In this document: positions 203 through 24,314 of the stretch, in pieces | How positions within the stretch are numbered: the first letter of the stretch is position 1 | Layout of the letters: each line of letters opens with the position of its first letter | NCBI RefSeq assembly: GCF_002854065.1 | Contig: NZ_CP024147.1 | DNA: 64,000 nt | From: Escherichia coli | GTDB taxonomy: Bacteria; Pseudomonadota; Gammaproteobacteria; Enterobacterales; Enterobacteriaceae | Strand: one strand, 5' to 3' | Position numbers and translations under genes: made by a program | Notes under the pieces: model-generated | Seen by the model: only the letters and a program-made list of their open reading frames with translations | What the model was told of the DNA's origin: nothing | Database searches by the model: none

Positions 203-976
203 ATGGCTCGTAAATGGTTGAACTTGTTTGCCGGGGCGGCACTCTCTTTCGCTGTTGCTGGCAATGCACTGGCAGATGAAGGGAAAATCACGGTGTTCGC
301 CGCCGCATCACTGACTAACGCAATGCAGGACATTGCTACGCAGTATAAAAAAGAGAAAGGCGTGGATGTGGTTTCTTCTTTCGCTTCGTCATCTACTCTC
401 GCCCGTCAGATTGAAGCGGGTGCGCCTGCGGATCTGTTTATTTCTGCCGATCAGAAATGGATGGATTATGCGGTTGATAAAAAAGCGATCGATACAGCTA
501 CGCGTCAGACACTGCTCGGCAATAGCCTGGTCGTTGTAGCACCGAAAGCCAGCGAGCAGAAAGATTTCATCATCGACAGCAAAACTAACTGGACTTCGCT
601 GCTGAATGGCGGTCGCCTCGCGGTTGGCGATCCGGAACATGTCCCTGCTGGCATTTATGCAAAAGAAGCACTGCAAAAACTGGGCGCATGGGATACGCTC
701 TCCCCGAAACTGGCTCCGGCGGAAGATGTTCGTGGCGCGCTGGCGTTGGTCGAACGCAATGAAGCGCCGTTGGGCATTGTTTACGGTTCTGACGCAGTTG
801 CCAGCAAAGGGGTAAAAGTGGTTGCCACCTTCCCGGAAGATTCACATAAAAAAGTGGAATATCCGGTTGCTGTTGTGGAAGGGCATAACAATGCGACAGT
901 GAAAGCATTTTATGATTATCTGAAGGGACCGCAGGCAGCGGAAATCTTTAAACGTTACGGATTTACAACCAAGTAA
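203..976 (+). CDS. modA: Molybdate ABC transporter periplasmic binding protein
   Basis: 257 aa ORF with signal peptide; recognised ModA sequence; first gene of modABC. Confidence 0.95.
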   Translation: MARKWLNLFAGAALSFAVAGNALADEGKITVFAAASLTNAMQDIATQYKKEKGVDVVSSFASSSTLARQIEAGAPADLFISADQKWMDYAVDKKAIDTATRQTLLGNSLVVVAPKASEQKDFIIDSKTNWTSLLNGGRLAVGDPEHVPAGIYAKEALQKLGAWDTLSPKLAPAEDVRGALALVERNEAPLGIVYGSDAVASKGVKVVATFPEDSHKKVEYPVAVVEGHNNATVKAFYDYLKGPQAAEIFKRYGFTTK

Positions 977-1665
977 TGATACTGACCGATCCAGAATGGC
1001 AGGCAGTTTTATTAAGCCTGAAAGTTTCTTCCCTGGCTGTGCTGTTTAGCCTGCCGTTTGGGATCTTTTTTGCCTGGTTACTGGTGCGTTGCACGTTTCC
1101 GGGCAAATCTCTGCTCGACAGCGTACTGCATCTACCGCTGGTGTTACCGCCCGTGGTCGTCGGTTACTTATTATTAGTTTCGATGGGGCGGCGCGGATTT
1201 ATCGGTGAACGTCTGTATGACTGGTTTGGTATAACCTTCGCCTTTAGCTGGCGCGGCGCGGTTCTCGCTGCCGCCGTCATGTCGTTTCCGCTGATGGTGC
1301 GGGCAATTCGTCTGGCGCTGGAAGGGGTTGATGTCAAACTGGAACAGGCCGCAAGAACACTGGGGGCCGGGCGCTGGCGCGTTTTCTTTACTATCACGTT
1401 ACCGCTGACCTTACCGGGAATTATTGTTGGTACGGTACTGGCTTTTGCTCGTTCTCTCGGTGAATTTGGCGCAACCATCACCTTTGTGTCGAACATTCCT
1501 GGTGAAACGCGAACCATTCCTTCTGCCATGTATACCCTGATTCAGACCCCCGGCGGGGAAAGTGGCGCAGCGAGACTGTGCATTATTTCTATTGCGCTGG
1601 CGATGATCTCCCTGTTGATTTCAGAATGGCTGGCCAGAATCAGCCGTGAACGGGCGGGGCGCTAA
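976..1665 (+). CDS. modB: Molybdate ABC transporter permease
   Basis: 229 aa polytopic membrane ORF; start overlaps modA stop (TAATG). Confidence 0.95.
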
Positions 1666-18546: not shown

Positions 18547-20568
18547 ATGAGTAAACCGTTCAAACTGAATTCCGCTTTTAAACCTTCTGGCGATCAGCCA
18601 GAGGCGATTCGACGTCTCGAAGAGGGGCTGGAAGATGGCCTGGCGCACCAGACGTTACTTGGTGTGACTGGTTCCGGGAAAACCTTCACCATTGCCAATG
18701 TCATTGCTGACCTTCAGCGCCCTACCATGGTACTTGCGCCCAACAAAACGCTGGCGGCCCAGCTGTATGGCGAAATGAAAGAGTTCTTCCCGGAAAACGC
18801 GGTGGAATATTTCGTCTCCTACTACGACTACTATCAGCCAGAAGCCTATGTACCGAGTTCCGACACCTTCATTGAGAAAGATGCCTCGGTAAACGAACAT
18901 ATCGAACAGATGCGTTTGTCCGCCACCAAAGCGATGCTGGAGCGGCGTGATGTGGTTGTGGTCGCGTCTGTTTCCGCGATTTATGGTCTGGGCGATCCTG
19001 ATTTATATCTCAAGATGATGCTCCATCTCACGGTCGGTATGATTATCGATCAGCGCGCGATTCTGCGCCGACTGGCGGAGCTACAATACGCTCGTAATGA
19101 TCAAGCATTCCAGCGTGGTACTTTCCGTGTTCGTGGCGAGGTGATTGATATCTTCCCGGCAGAATCGGATGACATTGCACTTCGCGTGGAACTGTTTGAC
19201 GAGGAAGTGGAACGATTGTCGTTATTTGACCCGCTAACCGGGCAGATTGTTTCCACCATTCCACGTTTTACCATCTACCCGAAAACGCACTACGTCACAC
19301 CGCGCGAGCGCATCGTACAGGCGATGGAGGAGATCAAAGAAGAGCTGGCCGCCAGACGCAAAGTGCTATTGGAAAACAACAAACTGCTGGAAGAGCAGCG
19401 GCTGACCCAGCGTACCCAGTTTGATCTGGAGATGATGAACGAGCTGGGCTACTGTTCGGGGATTGAAAACTACTCGCGCTTCCTCTCCGGTCGTGGACCG
19501 GGTGAGCCACCGCCGACGCTGTTTGATTACCTGCCTGCCGATGGGCTGCTGGTGGTCGATGAATCTCACGTCACCATTCCACAAATTGGCGGCATGTATC
19601 GCGGTGACCGGGCGCGTAAAGAGACACTGGTGGAGTACGGCTTCCGCCTGCCATCAGCGCTGGATAACCGTCCGCTGAAATTTGAAGAGTTCGAAGCATT
19701 AGCGCCGCAAACCATCTATGTTTCGGCGACGCCAGGTAATTATGAGCTGGAAAAATCCGGCGGCGATGTGGTGGATCAGGTGGTGCGTCCAACCGGATTG
19801 CTTGATCCGATTATCGAAGTGCGGCCAGTGGCGACACAGGTTGATGATCTTCTTTCGGAGATTCGTCAGCGAGCGGCAATTAACGAACGCGTACTGGTCA
19901 CCACACTGACCAAGCGAATGGCGGAAGATCTTACCGAATATCTCGAAGAACACGGTGAGCGCGTGCGTTATCTTCACTCAGATATCGACACCGTCGAGCG
20001 TATGGAGATTATCCGCGACTTGCGTCTGGGTGAGTTCGACGTGCTGGTGGGGATCAACTTACTGCGCGAAGGTCTGGATATGCCGGAAGTTTCGCTGGTG
20101 GCGATCCTCGACGCTGACAAAGAAGGCTTCCTGCGTTCTGAACGTTCGTTGATCCAGACCATTGGTCGTGCGGCACGTAACGTTAACGGTAAAGCGATTC
20201 TCTACGGCGATAAGATCACCCCATCAATGGCGAAAGCGATTGGCGAAACCGAACGTCGCCGCGAGAAACAGCAGAAGTACAACGAGGAACACGGCATTAC
20301 GCCGCAAGGCTTGAACAAGAAAGTGGTCGATATCCTGGCGTTGGGGCAGAACATTGCTAAAACCAAAGCGAAGGGCAGAGGAAAATCGCGCCCGATTGTT
20401 GAGCCGGATAATGTGCCGATGGATATGTCGCCTAAAGCGTTGCAGCAGAAGATCCATGAACTGGAAGGGTTGATGATGCAACACGCGCAAAATCTGGAGT
20501 TCGAAGAAGCGGCACAAATTCGTGACCAGTTGCATCAGTTGCGTGAATTGTTTATCGCGGCTTCGTGA
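18547..20568 (+). CDS. uvrB: Excinuclease ABC subunit B
   Basis: 673 aa; Walker A GVTGSGKT; recognised UvrB. Confidence 0.97.
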
Positions 20569-20758: not shown

Positions 20759-21727
<969 letters not shown>

Positions 21728-21924
21728 TTAACCTGCCAATATTGAGGATACAAACTATTTTCTTCTACCTCTAAAGGACGATGTGCGCTATGCCTCCCTG
21801 ATGATGTATATCAAAGTAAAACCGCCATTTTCCCTTATTCTGTAGCGAAATAGCACGATCATGACGCTATATACATGATTACATAGCGAAAGTGTGGATG
21901 GTAAAAATCTCGTTTACACGCTAG

Positions 21925-22063
21925 TATCGGCTTAACCACTAAACACTCTAGCCTCTGCACCTGGGTCAACTGATACGGTGCTTTGGCCGTGACAATGCTC
22001 GTAAAGATTGCCACCAGGGCGAAGGAAGAAATGACTTCGCCTCCCGTATCTGGAAAGGTGTAC
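21925..22063 (+). ncRNA. Putative molybdenum-cofactor (Moco) riboswitch in moaA 5' UTR; borders approximate
   Basis: Structured GC-rich leader directly upstream of moaA with CCUCCC near the start codon; position matches the known Moco RNA motif of moaABCDE. Confidence 0.5.
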
Positions 22064-23053
22064 ATGGCTTCACAACTGACTGATGCATTTGCGCGTAAGT
22101 TTTACTACTTGCGCCTGTCGATTACCGATGTGTGTAACTTTCGTTGCACCTACTGCCTGCCGGATGGCTACAAACCGAGCGGCGTCACCAATAAAGGCTT
22201 TCTGACCGTCGATGAAATTCGCCGGGTTACGCGCGCCTTCGCCAGTCTGGGCACCGAAAAAGTCCGTCTGACAGGTGGTGAGCCGTCTTTACGCCGCGAC
22301 TTTACCGATATCATCGCCGCTGTGCGAGAAAATGACGCTATCCGCCAGATTGCGGTCACCACCAATGGTTACCGTCTGGAACGCGATGTGGCGAACTGGC
22401 GCGATGCTGGACTTACTGGCATCAACGTCAGCGTTGATAGTCTGGACGCCCGCCAGTTTCACGCTATTACCGGGCAGGATAAATTCAACCAGGTGATGGC
22501 AGGGATTGATGCTGCATTTGAGGCTGGTTTTGAGAAGGTCAAAGTCAATACCGTGCTGATGCGTGATGTGAATCATCACCAGCTCGACACCTTTCTGAAC
22601 TGGATCCAGCATCGCCCTATCCAGCTGCGTTTCATCGAACTGATGGAAACGGGCGAGGGCAGCGAGCTCTTCCGTAAGCATCACATCTCTGGTCAGGTTC
22701 TGCGTGACGAGCTACTGCGTCGCGGCTGGATCCACCAATTACGTCAACGCAGCGACGGTCCCGCGCAAGTCTTTTGTCATCCGGATTACGCCGGAGAGAT
22801 TGGCCTTATCATGCCGTATGAAAAAGACTTCTGCGCCACTTGCAACCGTCTGCGCGTTTCCTCCATTGGTAAACTCCATCTCTGCCTGTTTGGTGAAGGC
22901 GGCGTTAACCTGCGCGATCTGCTGGAAGACGATACCCAGCAACAGGCGCTGGAAGCGCGTATTTCAGCGGCGCTGCGGGAGAAGAAACAGACCCATTTCC
23001 TGCATCAAAACAACACCGGTATTACGCAAAACTTATCGTACATTGGCGGCTAA
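22064..23053 (+). CDS. moaA: GTP 3',8-cyclase (radical SAM)
   Basis: Start at MASQLTDAF (329 aa); CNFRCTYC motif. Confidence 0.95.
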
Positions 23054-23074: not shown

Positions 23075-23587
23075 ATGAGTCAGGTAAGCACTGAATTTAT
23101 CCCGACCCGTATTGCTATTCTTACGGTTTCTAATCGTCGCGGTGAAGAAGACGATACCTCCGGTCACTATTTGCGCGATTCGGCGCAAGAAGCGGGCCAT
23201 CACGTTGTCGATAAAGCCATTGTGAAAGAAAACCGCTACGCTATTCGCGCTCAGGTATCTGCGTGGATCGCCAGCGACGATGTACAAGTGGTGTTGATTA
23301 CGGGGGGGACTGGCCTGACGGAAGGTGATCAGGCTCCCGAAGCATTGCTGCCGTTGTTCGACCGTGAAGTTGAAGGTTTTGGTGAAGTGTTCCGTATGTT
23401 GTCGTTTGAAGAGATTGGCACTTCCACGTTGCAATCTCGTGCGGTAGCGGGCGTCGCTAACAAAACGCTGATTTTCGCCATGCCGGGTTCGACCAAAGCG
23501 TGCCGTACCGCATGGGAAAATATCATCGCGCCGCAGCTGGATGCCCGTACGCGTCCGTGTAATTTCCATCCACATTTGAAGAAATAA
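23075..23587 (+). CDS. moaB: Molybdenum cofactor biosynthesis protein B
   Basis: 170 aa; recognised MoaB. Confidence 0.93.
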
Positions 23588-23589
23588 GT

Positions 23590-24075
23590 ATGTCGCAACT
23601 GACCCATATCAACGCCGCTGGCGAAGCGCACATGGTGGATGTCTCCGCCAAAGCGGAAACCGTGCGTGAAGCGCGGGCGGAAGCCTTTGTCACCATGCGC
23701 AGCGAGACGCTGGCGATGATTATTGATGGTCGCCACCACAAAGGCGACGTATTTGCCACTGCGCGTATTGCCGGTATTCAGGCGGCAAAACGCACCTGGG
23801 ATCTGATCCCGCTGTGTCATCCGCTGATGCTCAGCAAAGTTGAAGTCAATTTACAGGCCGAGCCGGAGCACAATCGGGTGCGTATAGAAACCTTATGCCG
23901 CCTGACCGGGAAAACCGGTGTCGAAATGGAAGCGTTAACCGCGGCCTCCGTGGCGGCGCTGACCATTTATGACATGTGCAAAGCGGTGCAAAAAGATATG
24001 GTGATTGGTCCGGTACGTTTGTTGGCAAAGAGCGGCGGCAAGTCAGGTGACTTTAAGGTGGAAGCGGATGATTAA
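23590..24075 (+). CDS. moaC: Cyclic pyranopterin monophosphate synthase
   Basis: 161 aa; recognised MoaC. Confidence 0.95.
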
Positions 24076-24313
24076 AGTTCTTTTTTTCGCCCAGGTGCGC
24101 GAGTTGGTGGGAACAGATGCAACCGAAGTGGCTGCGGATTTCCCAACCGTTGAAGCGTTACGCCAGCACCTGGCTGCGCAGAGTGATCGCTGGGCGCTGG
24201 CGCTGGAAGATGGCAAATTACTGGCTGCCGTCAACCAGACGCTGGTGAGTTTTGACCATCCGCTGACTGACGGCGACGAAGTAGCTTTCTTCCCGCCGGT
24301 AACCGGAGGTTAA
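24068..24313 (+). CDS. moaD: Molybdopterin synthase sulfur-carrier subunit
   Basis: Start at [12 protein letters not shown] (81 aa), ends in GG; overlaps moaC end. Confidence 0.92.
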
Positions 24314-24314
24314 G

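What the first reader, a model, noticed from the sequence alone, without database searches (positions are those of the whole stretch)
21925..22063. Structured leader upstream of moaA consistent with the Moco riboswitch
moaA is preceded by a long leader downstream of divergent ybhK (396-bp spacer) with GC-rich paired segments and a CCUCCC stretch close to the start codon. Position and size match the molybdenum-cofactor RNA motif known to control moaABCDE. The borders given here are approximate.
Basis: partly seen in the sequence, partly recalled or inferred. Interest (0 to 1): 0.3.

Follow-up and report, generated by a model that had tools for sequence, protein, structure and literature searches.

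The report
Known E. coli moaA Moco riboswitch

Summary
The window is E. coli chromosome (uvrB, ybhK/yvcK, moaABCDE). Rfam family RF01055 (Moco RNA motif) matches 21932..22076 (+) over the full model at 103.4 bits (gathering score 36, E 1e-24). No other family matches this interval. RefSeq annotates the same coordinates as "molybdenum cofactor riboswitch". The 396-bp ybhK-moaA spacer and the CCUCCC stretch (22040-22045) are as described.

I tested the structure independently. A full-length element sits against the moaA start in 79 of 80 gamma-proteobacterial moaA loci. About 80-83% of cells pair, against 34-44% when the partners are slid. 26-29 of 41 pairs show compensatory changes, and no shuffle of 500 reaches the observed values.

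The ribosome-binding site (AAGGUG, 22055-22060) lies in the 3' strand of P1, 3 nt before the AUG at 22064. This fits a translational OFF switch. The window differs from K-12 MG1655 at one unpaired base of the element, so the published genetics (Regulski et al. 2008) apply directly. Published extra layers are CsrA activation, Rho-dependent termination, and ModE/FNR promoters.

Still open in the field: direct Moco binding has never been shown in vitro. Novelty: already known. Interest: low.

The parts
20759..21667 (-). ybhK / yvcK, the divergent upstream gene that bounds the 396-bp spacer
   Evidence: RefSeq CDS at L001 2160..3068, offset +18599; ORF
21801..21814 (+). FNR-like site ATGAT-GTAT-ATCAA (13 of 14 matches to TTGAT-N4-ATCAA), upstream of the S2 promoter
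   Evidence: Pattern search. There were 6 matches in the window against 2.7 expected, so the match alone is weak. Its position fits the FNR box drawn upstream of S2 in Regulski 2008 Fig. 2A. The assignment is inferred.
21846..21846 (+). approximate S2 (FNR-dependent) transcription start, at -87 relative to S1
   Evidence: Computed from the numbering quoted in PMC2408646 (S1 = +1, S2 = -87; 131 nt from S1 to the start codon). Inferred, good to a few nt. The promoter scan found no sigma-70 consensus here.
21865..21888 (.). ModE-operator-like inverted repeat CGCTATATA-N6-TACATAGCG, upstream of S1
   Evidence: The only inverted repeat found in the spacer. Its position fits the ModE box upstream of S1 in Regulski 2008 Fig. 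2A. Its resemblance to the ModE operator is from my own knowledge. Binding was not tested here.
21933..21933 (+). approximate S1 (ModE-dependent) transcription start. A TAGTAT -10-like hexamer lies at 21922-21927.
   Evidence: 131 nt between S1 and the moaA start codon (PMC2408646), so 22064-131. The published constructs '138 moaA' and '149 moaA' map to 21934..22071 and 21934..22082 and fit P1 = 21943..22061. The hexamer was read. Inferred.
21932..22076 (+). Moco riboswitch, full extent of the Rfam RF01055 match and of the RefSeq 'riboswitch' feature
   Evidence: My own model R1 gives 21933..22076 at 116.3 bits.
21943..21948 (+). P1, 5' strand (ACAC-u-C; U21947 bulged)
   Evidence: Pairs listed. 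P1 is the least well supported helix: 62-67% of cells pair.
21951..21987 (+). P2 hairpin: base helix 21951-21961/21977-21987 with an internal loop of U.U, C.U, U.U (21954-56/21982-84); tetraloop-receptor-like bulge CCUGGG...UACGG; distal helix 21965-67/21972-74
   Evidence: 9 of 11 base-helix pairs show compensatory changes.
21989..22014 (+). P3 hairpin (GUGAC...GCCAC), the stem whose presence marks the Moco-type rather than the Tuco-type RNAs
   Evidence: 5 of 5 pairs show compensatory changes and 95-99% of cells pair. The P3 disrupt/restore mutants M1/M2 are in PMC2408646.
22017..22042 (+). P4 hairpin with GAAA tetraloop at 22028-22031. It contains the GGA at 22024-22026, a candidate CsrA site.
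   Evidence: GAAA in 80 of 80 sequences. 8 of 11 pairs are compensatory. GGA positions. The P4 GGA is present in only 29 of 80 orthologues.
22043..22053 (+). P5 mini-hairpin, CC (22043-44) paired with GG (22052-53).
   Evidence: 98-99% of cells pair.
22055..22060 (+). Shine-Dalgarno core AAGGUG, of which GGUG (22057-60) is part of the 3' strand of P1 (22057-22061)
   Evidence: Sequence, pairs. GGAAAGGUGU is invariant or nearly so in 21 species. 'RBS within P1' is stated in PMC2408646.
22064..23053 (+). moaA (GTP 3',8-cyclase), the regulated gene. Its AUG lies 2 nt after the end of P1.
   Evidence: RefSeq CDS, ORF. A start codon follows GGUGU by 1-6 nt in 77 of 80 orthologues.
23075..24767 (+). 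moaB, moaC, moaD, moaE (23075-23587, 23590-24075, 24068-24313, 24315-24767), the rest of the operon
   Evidence: RefSeq CDSs, ORFs

Best explanation
This is the E. coli moaA molybdenum-cofactor riboswitch, a member of Rfam RF01055. It is a cis-acting 5'-leader RNA of about 120 nt (P1-bounded 21943..22061) that folds into five helices around a multi-stem junction. A GAAA tetraloop on P4 is expected to dock into a bulge of P2. There is no separate expression platform. The Shine-Dalgarno purines GGAAAGGUG (22052-22060) are themselves the 3' strands of P5 and P1, and the AUG follows 2 nt after P1. When Moco is plentiful, ligand binding is thought to lock the junction and P1. That hides the ribosome-binding site and lowers moaA translation, giving feedback repression of the first steps of Moco synthesis. 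Reduced translation then probably exposes the mRNA to Rho-dependent termination. CsrA, which binds two sites in the aptamer, counteracts the sequestration. Transcription enters from an FNR-dependent promoter (S2, about 21846) and a ModE-dependent promoter (S1, about 21933). Shown here: identity, borders, helices, covariation, conservation of position relative to the start codon, and identity to the tested K-12 sequence. Taken from the literature: repression by Moco synthesis, dependence on P3 pairing, the moeA/mogA/modC requirement, mobA independence, tungstate insensitivity, CsrA activation, and the Rho effect. Inferred and never directly shown: physical binding of Moco to the RNA.
For: Rfam RF01055 matches the full model 1-135 at 103.4 bits against a gathering score of 36, E 1.2e-24, and it is the only family at E<=1. 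RefSeq has a 'molybdenum cofactor riboswitch' feature at the same bases. The element is present in 5424 of 5426 complete E. coli genomes, at >=99% identity in 5396. All 20 diverse moaA loci tested (Escherichia to Vibrio, Aeromonas, Haemophilus, Moritella) have a full-length RF01055 hit of 82-103 bits ending at the moaA start. My own model finds it in 79 of 80 loci, always on the + strand relative to moaA. Covariation on a structure-naive MAFFT alignment: 80.5% paired against 36-44% slid, 26 of 41 pairs compensatory, covariation score 0.344 against 0.193, 0 of 500 shuffles. On 80 sequences: 82.5% against 34-43%, 29 of 41 pairs, 0 of 500. RNAalifold independently recovers P2 and P4. The many conserved G-U pairs (for example GU in 77-79 of 80 at the bases of P2b and P4) fix the strand as +. 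GAAA tetraloop in 80 of 80. GGAAAGGUGU is invariant, and a start codon follows within 1-6 nt in 77 of 80. There are 4 differences from MG1655 in 21668..22200, and only 21932 lies in the element, unpaired. Experimental literature on this RNA is in PMC2408646. CsrA binding at two sites in the aptamer, activating translation: PMC7652899. The moaA fusion is more than 2-fold higher in rhoR66S: PMC7815308.
Against: Direct binding of Moco to the RNA has not been demonstrated, because the cofactor is too unstable (PMC2408646). A 2024 paper states that the exact regulating Moco metabolite has still not been identified (PMC10845959). Single-sequence thermodynamics do not favour the aptamer fold in E. 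coli: consensus -26.6 kcal/mol (-33.2 when enforced and extended) against an MFE of -42.0, z-score only -1.57. P1, the helix on which the mechanism depends, is the weakest comparatively (62-67% of cells paired, mostly invariant or one-sided change). The three outermost Rfam pairs are not supported (46%). The SD core is predicted to be paired even in the unconstrained ensemble, so how the ON state arises is not explained by folding alone. The E. coli receptor bulge departs from the canonical 11-nt motif.
Confidence: 0.92

Rival explanations
1. The conserved RNA is real, but it is not itself the Moco sensor. A protein (a Moco-carrier or Moco-binding protein, or CsrA with changed availability) reads the cofactor status and binds the structured leader, so the RNA is a protein-binding platform rather than a riboswitch.
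For: Direct Moco-RNA binding has never been shown (PMC2408646; PMC10845959). CsrA does bind two sites inside the aptamer and changes translation (PMC7652899). Two GGA motifs lie in the aptamer at 22024 and 22052.
Against: No such protein has been found since the regulation was described. Per PMC2408646, the motif occurs in Clostridia, Actinobacteria, Deinococcus-Thermus and delta-Proteobacteria, with different expression platforms including intrinsic terminators, and P3 presence tracks Mo versus W metabolism; this is typical of a direct metabolite sensor. The most conserved nucleotides cluster at the junction, not at the GGA of P4, which is present in only 29 of 80 orthologues. CsrA activates rather than mediating Moco repression.
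Confidence: 0.05
2. The switch acts mainly on transcription (premature termination in the leader) rather than on translation initiation.
For: Rho-dependent 3' ends are associated with moaA, and the fusion is more than 2-fold higher in a rho mutant (PMC7815308). Other members of the family carry intrinsic terminators.
Against: There is no intrinsic-terminator-like site between the aptamer and the AUG. The only such hit in 21600..22150 is at 21652-21665, inside ybhK. The aptamer overlaps the SD and ends 2 nt before the AUG, which leaves no room for a terminator platform. Regulation was measured with a translational fusion driven by lacUV5. CsrA changes translation without changing moaA mRNA levels (PMC4347634). 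Rho termination is most simply a consequence of blocked translation.
Confidence: 0.02
3. The interval is coding: an N-terminal extension of MoaA from TTG 21983 (356-aa ORF), or the 68-aa ORF on the minus strand (21859..22065).
For: Both ORFs appear in the mechanical ORF list. 30 in-frame codons are open upstream of the ATG in the window.
Against: In 37 of 80 orthologous loci an in-frame stop lies within 27 codons upstream of moaA. P2-loop and P3 lengths vary by amounts that are not multiples of 3. Variation follows base-pair covariation, not codon patterns. RefSeq starts MoaA at 22064, and the conserved start codon follows the SD.
Confidence: 0.005
4. It is the tungsten-cofactor (Tuco/Wco) variant of the motif rather than the Moco-sensing type.
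For: RF01055 covers both types under one model.
Against: P3 is present (21989-22014) and well supported. P3-containing RNAs associate with Moco metabolism, and this RNA is not repressed by tungstate (PMC2408646).
Confidence: 0.005

Closest known systems
Moco RNA motif / molybdenum cofactor riboswitch, Rfam RF01055: the E. coli K-12 moaA representative (Regulski et al. 2008, PMC2408646)
   Same: The same locus and the same RNA. All helices P1-P5, the GAAA tetraloop, the junction nucleotides, the SD-in-P1 arrangement and the moaABCDE context are identical. Only the unpaired base 21932 differs from MG1655.
   Different: Nothing functional. The window comes from a non-K-12 E. coli with 3 further substitutions in the promoter region (21784, 21785, 21912).
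Tuco/Wco-type Moco RNAs lacking P3 (58 of the 176 original representatives)
   Same: They share the P1, P2, P4 and P5 core and the junction, and fall under the same Rfam model.
   Different: They lack P3 and associate with tungsten-cofactor genes. The window's RNA has P3 and does not respond to tungstate.
Moco RNAs with intrinsic-terminator expression platforms (for example in Clostridia and delta-Proteobacteria)
   Same: The same aptamer.
   Different: They act through a downstream terminator hairpin. Here there is none, and the SD is inside the aptamer.
Other E. coli translational OFF riboswitches followed by Rho-dependent termination (thiM/thiC TPP, btuB adenosylcobalamin); the comparison is from my own knowledge and from PMC7815308 and PMC11162775
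   Same: They are coenzyme-sensing 5' leaders that hide the SD, with secondary Rho-dependent effects and extra trans-acting regulators (sRNAs or CsrA).
   Different: The aptamer folds and ligands are unrelated. In those cases ligand binding has been shown in vitro and structures exist, whereas for Moco it has not been shown in the literature I could read.

Membership tests
Rfam RF01055 Moco/Tuco riboswitch | Covariance-model score at or above the curated gathering score (36 bits), over the full model | tested here: met
   103.4 bits, model positions 1-135 of 135, E 1.2e-24. It is the only family at E<=1 in 21600..22200.
Rfam RF01055 Moco/Tuco riboswitch | Up to five helices P1-P5 around a multi-stem junction, supported by covariation | tested here: met
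   All five map onto the window. P2, P3, P4 and P5 pair in 78-99% of cells, with 26-29 of 41 pairs compensatory and 0 of 500 shuffles reaching the observed values. P1 is weaker at 62-67%. The three outer Rfam pairs are unsupported (46%).
Rfam RF01055 Moco/Tuco riboswitch | GNRA (GAAA) tetraloop closing P4 | tested here: met
   GAAA at 22028-22031; 80 of 80 orthologues.
Rfam RF01055 Moco/Tuco riboswitch | Tetraloop receptor centred in a bulge of P2 | tested here: inconclusive
   The bulge is present at the right place, but in E. coli it reads CCUGGG...UACGG instead of the canonical 11-nt CCUAAG...UAUGG. Only 7 of 80 orthologues have the canonical form. Docking cannot be tested with these tools.
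Rfam RF01055 Moco/Tuco riboswitch | Highly conserved junction nucleotides | tested here: met
   Invariant or nearly invariant columns include AGCC, GGCCG, CCAGGG, CUCCCG and GGAAAGGUGU.
Rfam RF01055 Moco/Tuco riboswitch | Located in the 5' leader of Moco biosynthesis, molybdate transport or molybdoenzyme genes, on the same strand | tested here: met
   Directly upstream of moaABCDE on the + strand. The same position holds in 79 of 80 moaA loci.
Moco-type subclass (as opposed to Tuco-type) | Presence of the P3 stem | tested here: met
   P3 at 21989-21993/22010-22014. 5 of 5 pairs are compensatory across species. The criterion comes from PMC2408646.
Translational OFF riboswitch | Ribosome-binding site included in a ligand-stabilised helix (P1) | tested here: met
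   GGUG of the SD (22057-22060) lies in the 3' strand of P1, and the AUG is at 22064. The spacing is conserved. That ligand stabilises P1 is inferred.
Riboswitch (general definition) | Gene expression responds to the metabolite through the RNA in vivo | not testable with these tools
   Shown in the literature for a sequence identical in all helices: more than 3-fold repression on induction of moaABCDE, lost in P3 mutant M1 and restored in M2; requires modC, mogA and moeA but not mobA (PMC2408646).
Riboswitch (general definition) | Direct, protein-free binding of the ligand to the RNA | not testable with these tools
   Not demonstrated in any paper I could read. Moco was too unstable to test, and the regulating metabolite is still described as unidentified in 2024.

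The most novel reading that the evidence does not exclude
In the Escherichia/Citrobacter clade specifically, the ligand-free leader might rest in a non-aptamer fold. In it the 5' strand of P2 (21956-21962) pairs with the SD/P1 3' strand (22056-22062), and the receptor strand GAUACGG (21972-21978) pairs with CCGUAUC (22044-22050). The SD would then be hidden with or without Moco, and CsrA, rather than absence of ligand, would supply the ON state. This would make the element a three-state Moco/CsrA device. It would also fit the published observation that P2 is poorly formed in in-line probing without ligand. The evidence is weak. The fold is 9-15 kcal/mol better in the nearest-neighbour model, but it shows no covariation above shuffles and is the MFE in only 9 of 80 orthologues.
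Probability: 0.08. Interest if true: 0.3.

Novelty: already known. Interest (0 to 1): 0.07.

Why it matters
For the scan, it matters only as a positive control. A reader working from raw sequence recognised a genuine riboswitch to within about 10 nt, and the check it proposed confirms it. Biologically, the element is the feedback valve of molybdenum-cofactor synthesis in E. coli and is already in Rfam, in RefSeq annotation and in the experimental literature. The one open question attached to it cannot be advanced by sequence analysis of this window: whether the RNA binds Moco directly and in which chemical form, and how CsrA and Rho are integrated with it.

Tried and rejected
(1) Single-sequence folding as evidence. 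The z-score is -1.57 on the + strand and -2.47 on the - strand, and the MFE differs from the consensus fold. It is uninformative for this multi-junction RNA, so I did not use it.

(2) RNAalifold on the MAFFT alignment recovered P2 and P4 but mispaired the P3 3' strand with the P1 3' strand, because MAFFT misaligns the variable P3 and shifts the P1 5' strand. I replaced it with explicit pair counts and a model-based alignment.

(3) A conserved alternative ligand-free fold. It is pairable in 80% of cells, but compensatory changes are no better than shuffles (4 pairs, 293 of 500). It is in the MFE of only 5-9 of 80 orthologues, against 66-77 of 80 for P2-P4. Rejected as a general feature.

(4) A coding extension from TTG 21983, or the minus-strand 68-aa ORF: not conserved.

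(5) The sigma-70 promoter scan of 21600..22150 found nothing. The S1 and S2 positions therefore rest on the numbering quoted in PMC2408646, not on a consensus match.

(6) The FNR pattern match is not significant on its own (6 found against 2.7 expected).

(7) The primary papers Anderson 2000 (PMC94831), Patterson-Fortin 2013 (PMC3710303) and Studholme & Pau 2003 are not held. The exact CsrA footprints and ModE/FNR coordinates could not be checked against them.

(8) My first related-loci run failed because I had the moaA start off by one. I corrected it to 22064 from the annotation.

(9) The three outermost Rfam pairs (21934, 21935, 21937 with 22070, 22069, 22067) pair in only 46% of cells. I do not count them as part of the structure.

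Full report
**What is there.** The window is Escherichia coli chromosome. A 601-base query across the finding (21600..22200) matches 5424 of 5426 complete E. coli genomes, three of the listed ones at 100% identity. Transferring the RefSeq annotation of one identical genome (offset +18599) gives these features:
- uvrB, ending at 20568
- ybhK/yvcK at 20759..21667 on the minus strand
- a feature "riboswitch - molybdenum cofactor riboswitch" at 21932..22076
- moaA at 22064..23053
- moaB-E up to 24767

CCUCCC lies at 22040-22045.

A scan of the whole window against Rfam 15 at gathering thresholds gives two hits. One is RF01055 (Moco RNA motif) at 21932..22076 on the + strand: 103.4 bits against a gathering score of 36, E 1.2e-24, all 135 model positions. 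A permissive scan of 21600..22200 on both strands returns no other family at E<=1. Its borders (21925..22063) are within about 10 nt of the real ones.

**Independent test of the structure.** Single-sequence folding is not informative. The z-score is -1.57 on the + strand and -2.47 on the - strand, and the MFE is not the consensus fold. So I collected 80 moaA loci from one genome per species, spanning Escherichia, Citrobacter, Enterobacter, Pantoea, Erwinia, Yersinia, Serratia, Dickeya, Proteus-group genera, Vibrio, Photobacterium, Aeromonas, Moritella and Pasteurellaceae.
- All 20 diverse loci I scanned with Rfam carry a full-length RF01055 hit of 82-103 bits ending at the moaA start.
- On a MAFFT alignment of these 21 sequences, made without structural information, the Rfam structure projected through the window row pairs 80.5% of cells, against 36-44% when the 3' partners are slid by 1-3 columns.
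- In that alignment, 26 of 41 pairs have compensatory changes, and no shuffle of 500 reaches the observed pairing, compensatory-change or covariation values; only the count of further pair types is reached, by 2 of 500.
- RNAalifold on the same alignment recovers P2 and P4 by itself.
- A covariance model built from my alignment finds one element in the window (21933..22076, 116 bits) and one in 79 of the 80 loci, always on the moaA strand and abutting the start.
- On that 80-sequence alignment, 82.5% of cells pair against 34-43% slid, and 29 of 41 pairs are compensatory.
- Conserved G-U pairs (for example 77-79 of 80 at the bases of P2b and P4) fix the strand as +.
- The three outermost Rfam pairs are not supported (46% paired). 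P1 proper is the weakest helix (62-67%).

**Anatomy in window coordinates.**
- P1: 21943-21948 with 22057-22061
- P2: 21951-21961 with 21977-21987, including an internal loop of three non-canonical pairs, plus a distal helix 21965-67 with 21972-74
- P3: 21989-93 with 22010-14
- P4: 22017-27 with 32-42, closed by GAAA (22028-31)
- P5: CC 22043-44 with GG 22052-53

The purine tract GGAAAGGUG (22052-22060) is therefore shared out between P5, the P5/P1 junction and P1. The SD core AAGGUG ends 3 nt before the AUG at 22064. GGAAAGGUGU is invariant or nearly so in the 21 species. A start codon follows it by 1-6 nt in 77 of 80 sequences. There is no intrinsic terminator between the aptamer and the gene.

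**Link to the experiments.** Over 21668..22200 the window differs from K-12 MG1655 at four positions (21784, 21785, 21912, 21932). Only 21932 is inside the element, and it sits in the unpaired 5' flank. The constructs of Regulski et al. 2008 are described as starting 9 nt before P1 and ending 10 or 21 nt after it. They map to 21934..22071 (138 nt) and 21934..22082 (149 nt), which fits P1 = 21943..22061 exactly. The paper's "131 nt between S1 and the start codon" puts the ModE-dependent start S1 at about 21933 and the FNR-dependent S2 (-87) at about 21846.

That paper reports the following:
- The 149-nt leader represses a lacUV5-driven translational lacZ fusion more than 3-fold when the moa operon is induced.
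- Disrupting P3 abolishes the repression, and restoring P3 brings it back.
- modC, mogA and moeA are required, but mobA is not.
- Tungstate does not substitute for molybdate.
- Presence of P3 tracks Moco rather than tungsten-cofactor metabolism.

Later work adds that CsrA binds two sites in the aptamer and activates translation (PMC7652899, PMC4347634), and that a moaA fusion rises more than 2-fold in a rho mutant (PMC7815308). The aptamer contains exactly two GGA triplets, at 22024 in P4 and at 22052 in P5/SD. These are my candidates for the CsrA sites, but I could not read the primary paper to confirm it. The P4 GGA is present in only 29 of 80 orthologues, whereas the SD-proximal one is nearly universal.

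**Upstream DNA sites.** The only inverted repeat in the spacer is CGCTATATA-N6-TACATAGCG at 21865-21888. An FNR-like ATGATGTATATCAA lies at 21801-21814. Both sit where the published map draws the ModE and FNR boxes. The FNR pattern match is not significant by itself, and the promoter scan finds no sigma-70 consensus. That is expected for activator-dependent promoters but gives no independent support.

**Mechanism.** The best-supported reading is a translational OFF switch without a separate expression platform. Ligand binding stabilises the junction and P1, the SD is hidden, and moaA translation falls. Rho termination follows from reduced translation, and CsrA opposes the sequestration. Membership and architecture are shown here, and the in vivo response is shown in the literature. 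Direct Moco binding remains an inference: the cofactor was too unstable to test, and in 2024 the regulating species was still called unidentified.

**A lead I followed and dropped.** In E. coli the nearest-neighbour model prefers a different fold, at -42.0 kcal/mol against -26.6 for the consensus pairs (-33.2 when they are enforced and extended). In it the P2 5' strand pairs with the SD strand, and GAUACGG pairs with CCGUAUC. Regulski's in-line probing had found P2 poorly formed without ligand. Across 80 sequences these helices remain pairable (80%). But compensatory changes are no better than shuffles, and the fold is the MFE in only 5-9 of 80 orthologues, mostly Escherichia and Citrobacter, whereas P2-P4 are predicted in 66-77 of 80. 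It is not a conserved feature. I keep it only as the low-probability novel reading.

**Rivals.**
- A protein-mediated sensor cannot be excluded formally, but the motif's breadth, its varied platforms and the Mo/W split argue against it.
- Transcription termination as the primary mode is contradicted by the anatomy.
- A coding reading is contradicted by in-frame stops in 37 of 80 orthologues.
- A Tuco-type assignment is contradicted by P3.

**Verdict.** It is useful as a positive control for the scan and is of low interest otherwise.

Noticed in passing
window 44677..44747 (-): Rfam RF02564 naRNA4/CssrE hit at 78.4 bits. It lies in the region of the hcxB, ybiE and ybiJ genes. An 801-bp query spanning it matches a median of 17 places per E. 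coli genome, so it is a dispersed REP/BIME-type repeat rather than a unique gene.
   Followed up: partly
L067 1271..1491 (Rosenbergiella gaditana): This is the only one of the 80 moaA loci with no Moco element. The best score is 5.8 bits with filters off. A divergent 304-aa ORF (356..1270, the same length class as ybhK, not identified) and a 221-nt spacer are still present. It looks like a lineage-specific loss of the riboswitch.
   Followed up: partly
window 21960..21978: The E. coli tetraloop-receptor bulge reads CCUGGG...UACGG instead of the canonical 11-nt CCUAAG...UAUGG. Only 7 of 80 orthologues have the canonical form, although the GAAA loop is invariant. The A-A platform position is GG, AC or GU in many lineages.
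   Followed up: partly
L050 1307..1513; L032 1322..1504: The distal loop of P2 varies from 3 to 78 nt and the P3 hairpin from 14 to 30 nt across species. One metagenome-assembled Enterobacteriaceae genome has a 207-nt element with a large insertion in P2.
   Followed up: no
window 21934..21937 with 22067..22070: The three outermost base pairs of the Rfam consensus, which would pair the 5' flank with codons 2-3 of moaA, form in only 46% of cells across 80 sequences. They are probably not part of the structure in these gamma-proteobacteria.
   Followed up: yes
E. coli genome collection: Two matches to the moaA leader lie on records typed as plasmids, a few genomes have two copies, and 2 of 5426 genomes have no match.
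   Followed up: no
window 21784, 21785, 21912, 21932: These are the four differences from MG1655 in the spacer and early moaA. 21912 lies between the ModE-like repeat and the -10-like hexamer of S1, and 21932 is adjacent to the inferred S1 start. The effect on promoter strength is unknown.
   Followed up: no
L083 (NC_000913.3 816600..817200): The MG1655 reference record carries no riboswitch feature in front of moaA, whereas the PGAP-annotated genomes shown do. This is an annotation inconsistency, not a sequence difference.
   Followed up: no
L002 63..104 (-) (Escherichia albertii): Rfam RF02751 ES036/CssrF sRNA hit at 43.1 bits, about 1.3 kb upstream of moaA.
   Followed up: no
window 21859..22065 (-): A 68-aa ORF runs antisense across the whole aptamer. 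It is a mechanical ORF with no support.
   Followed up: no
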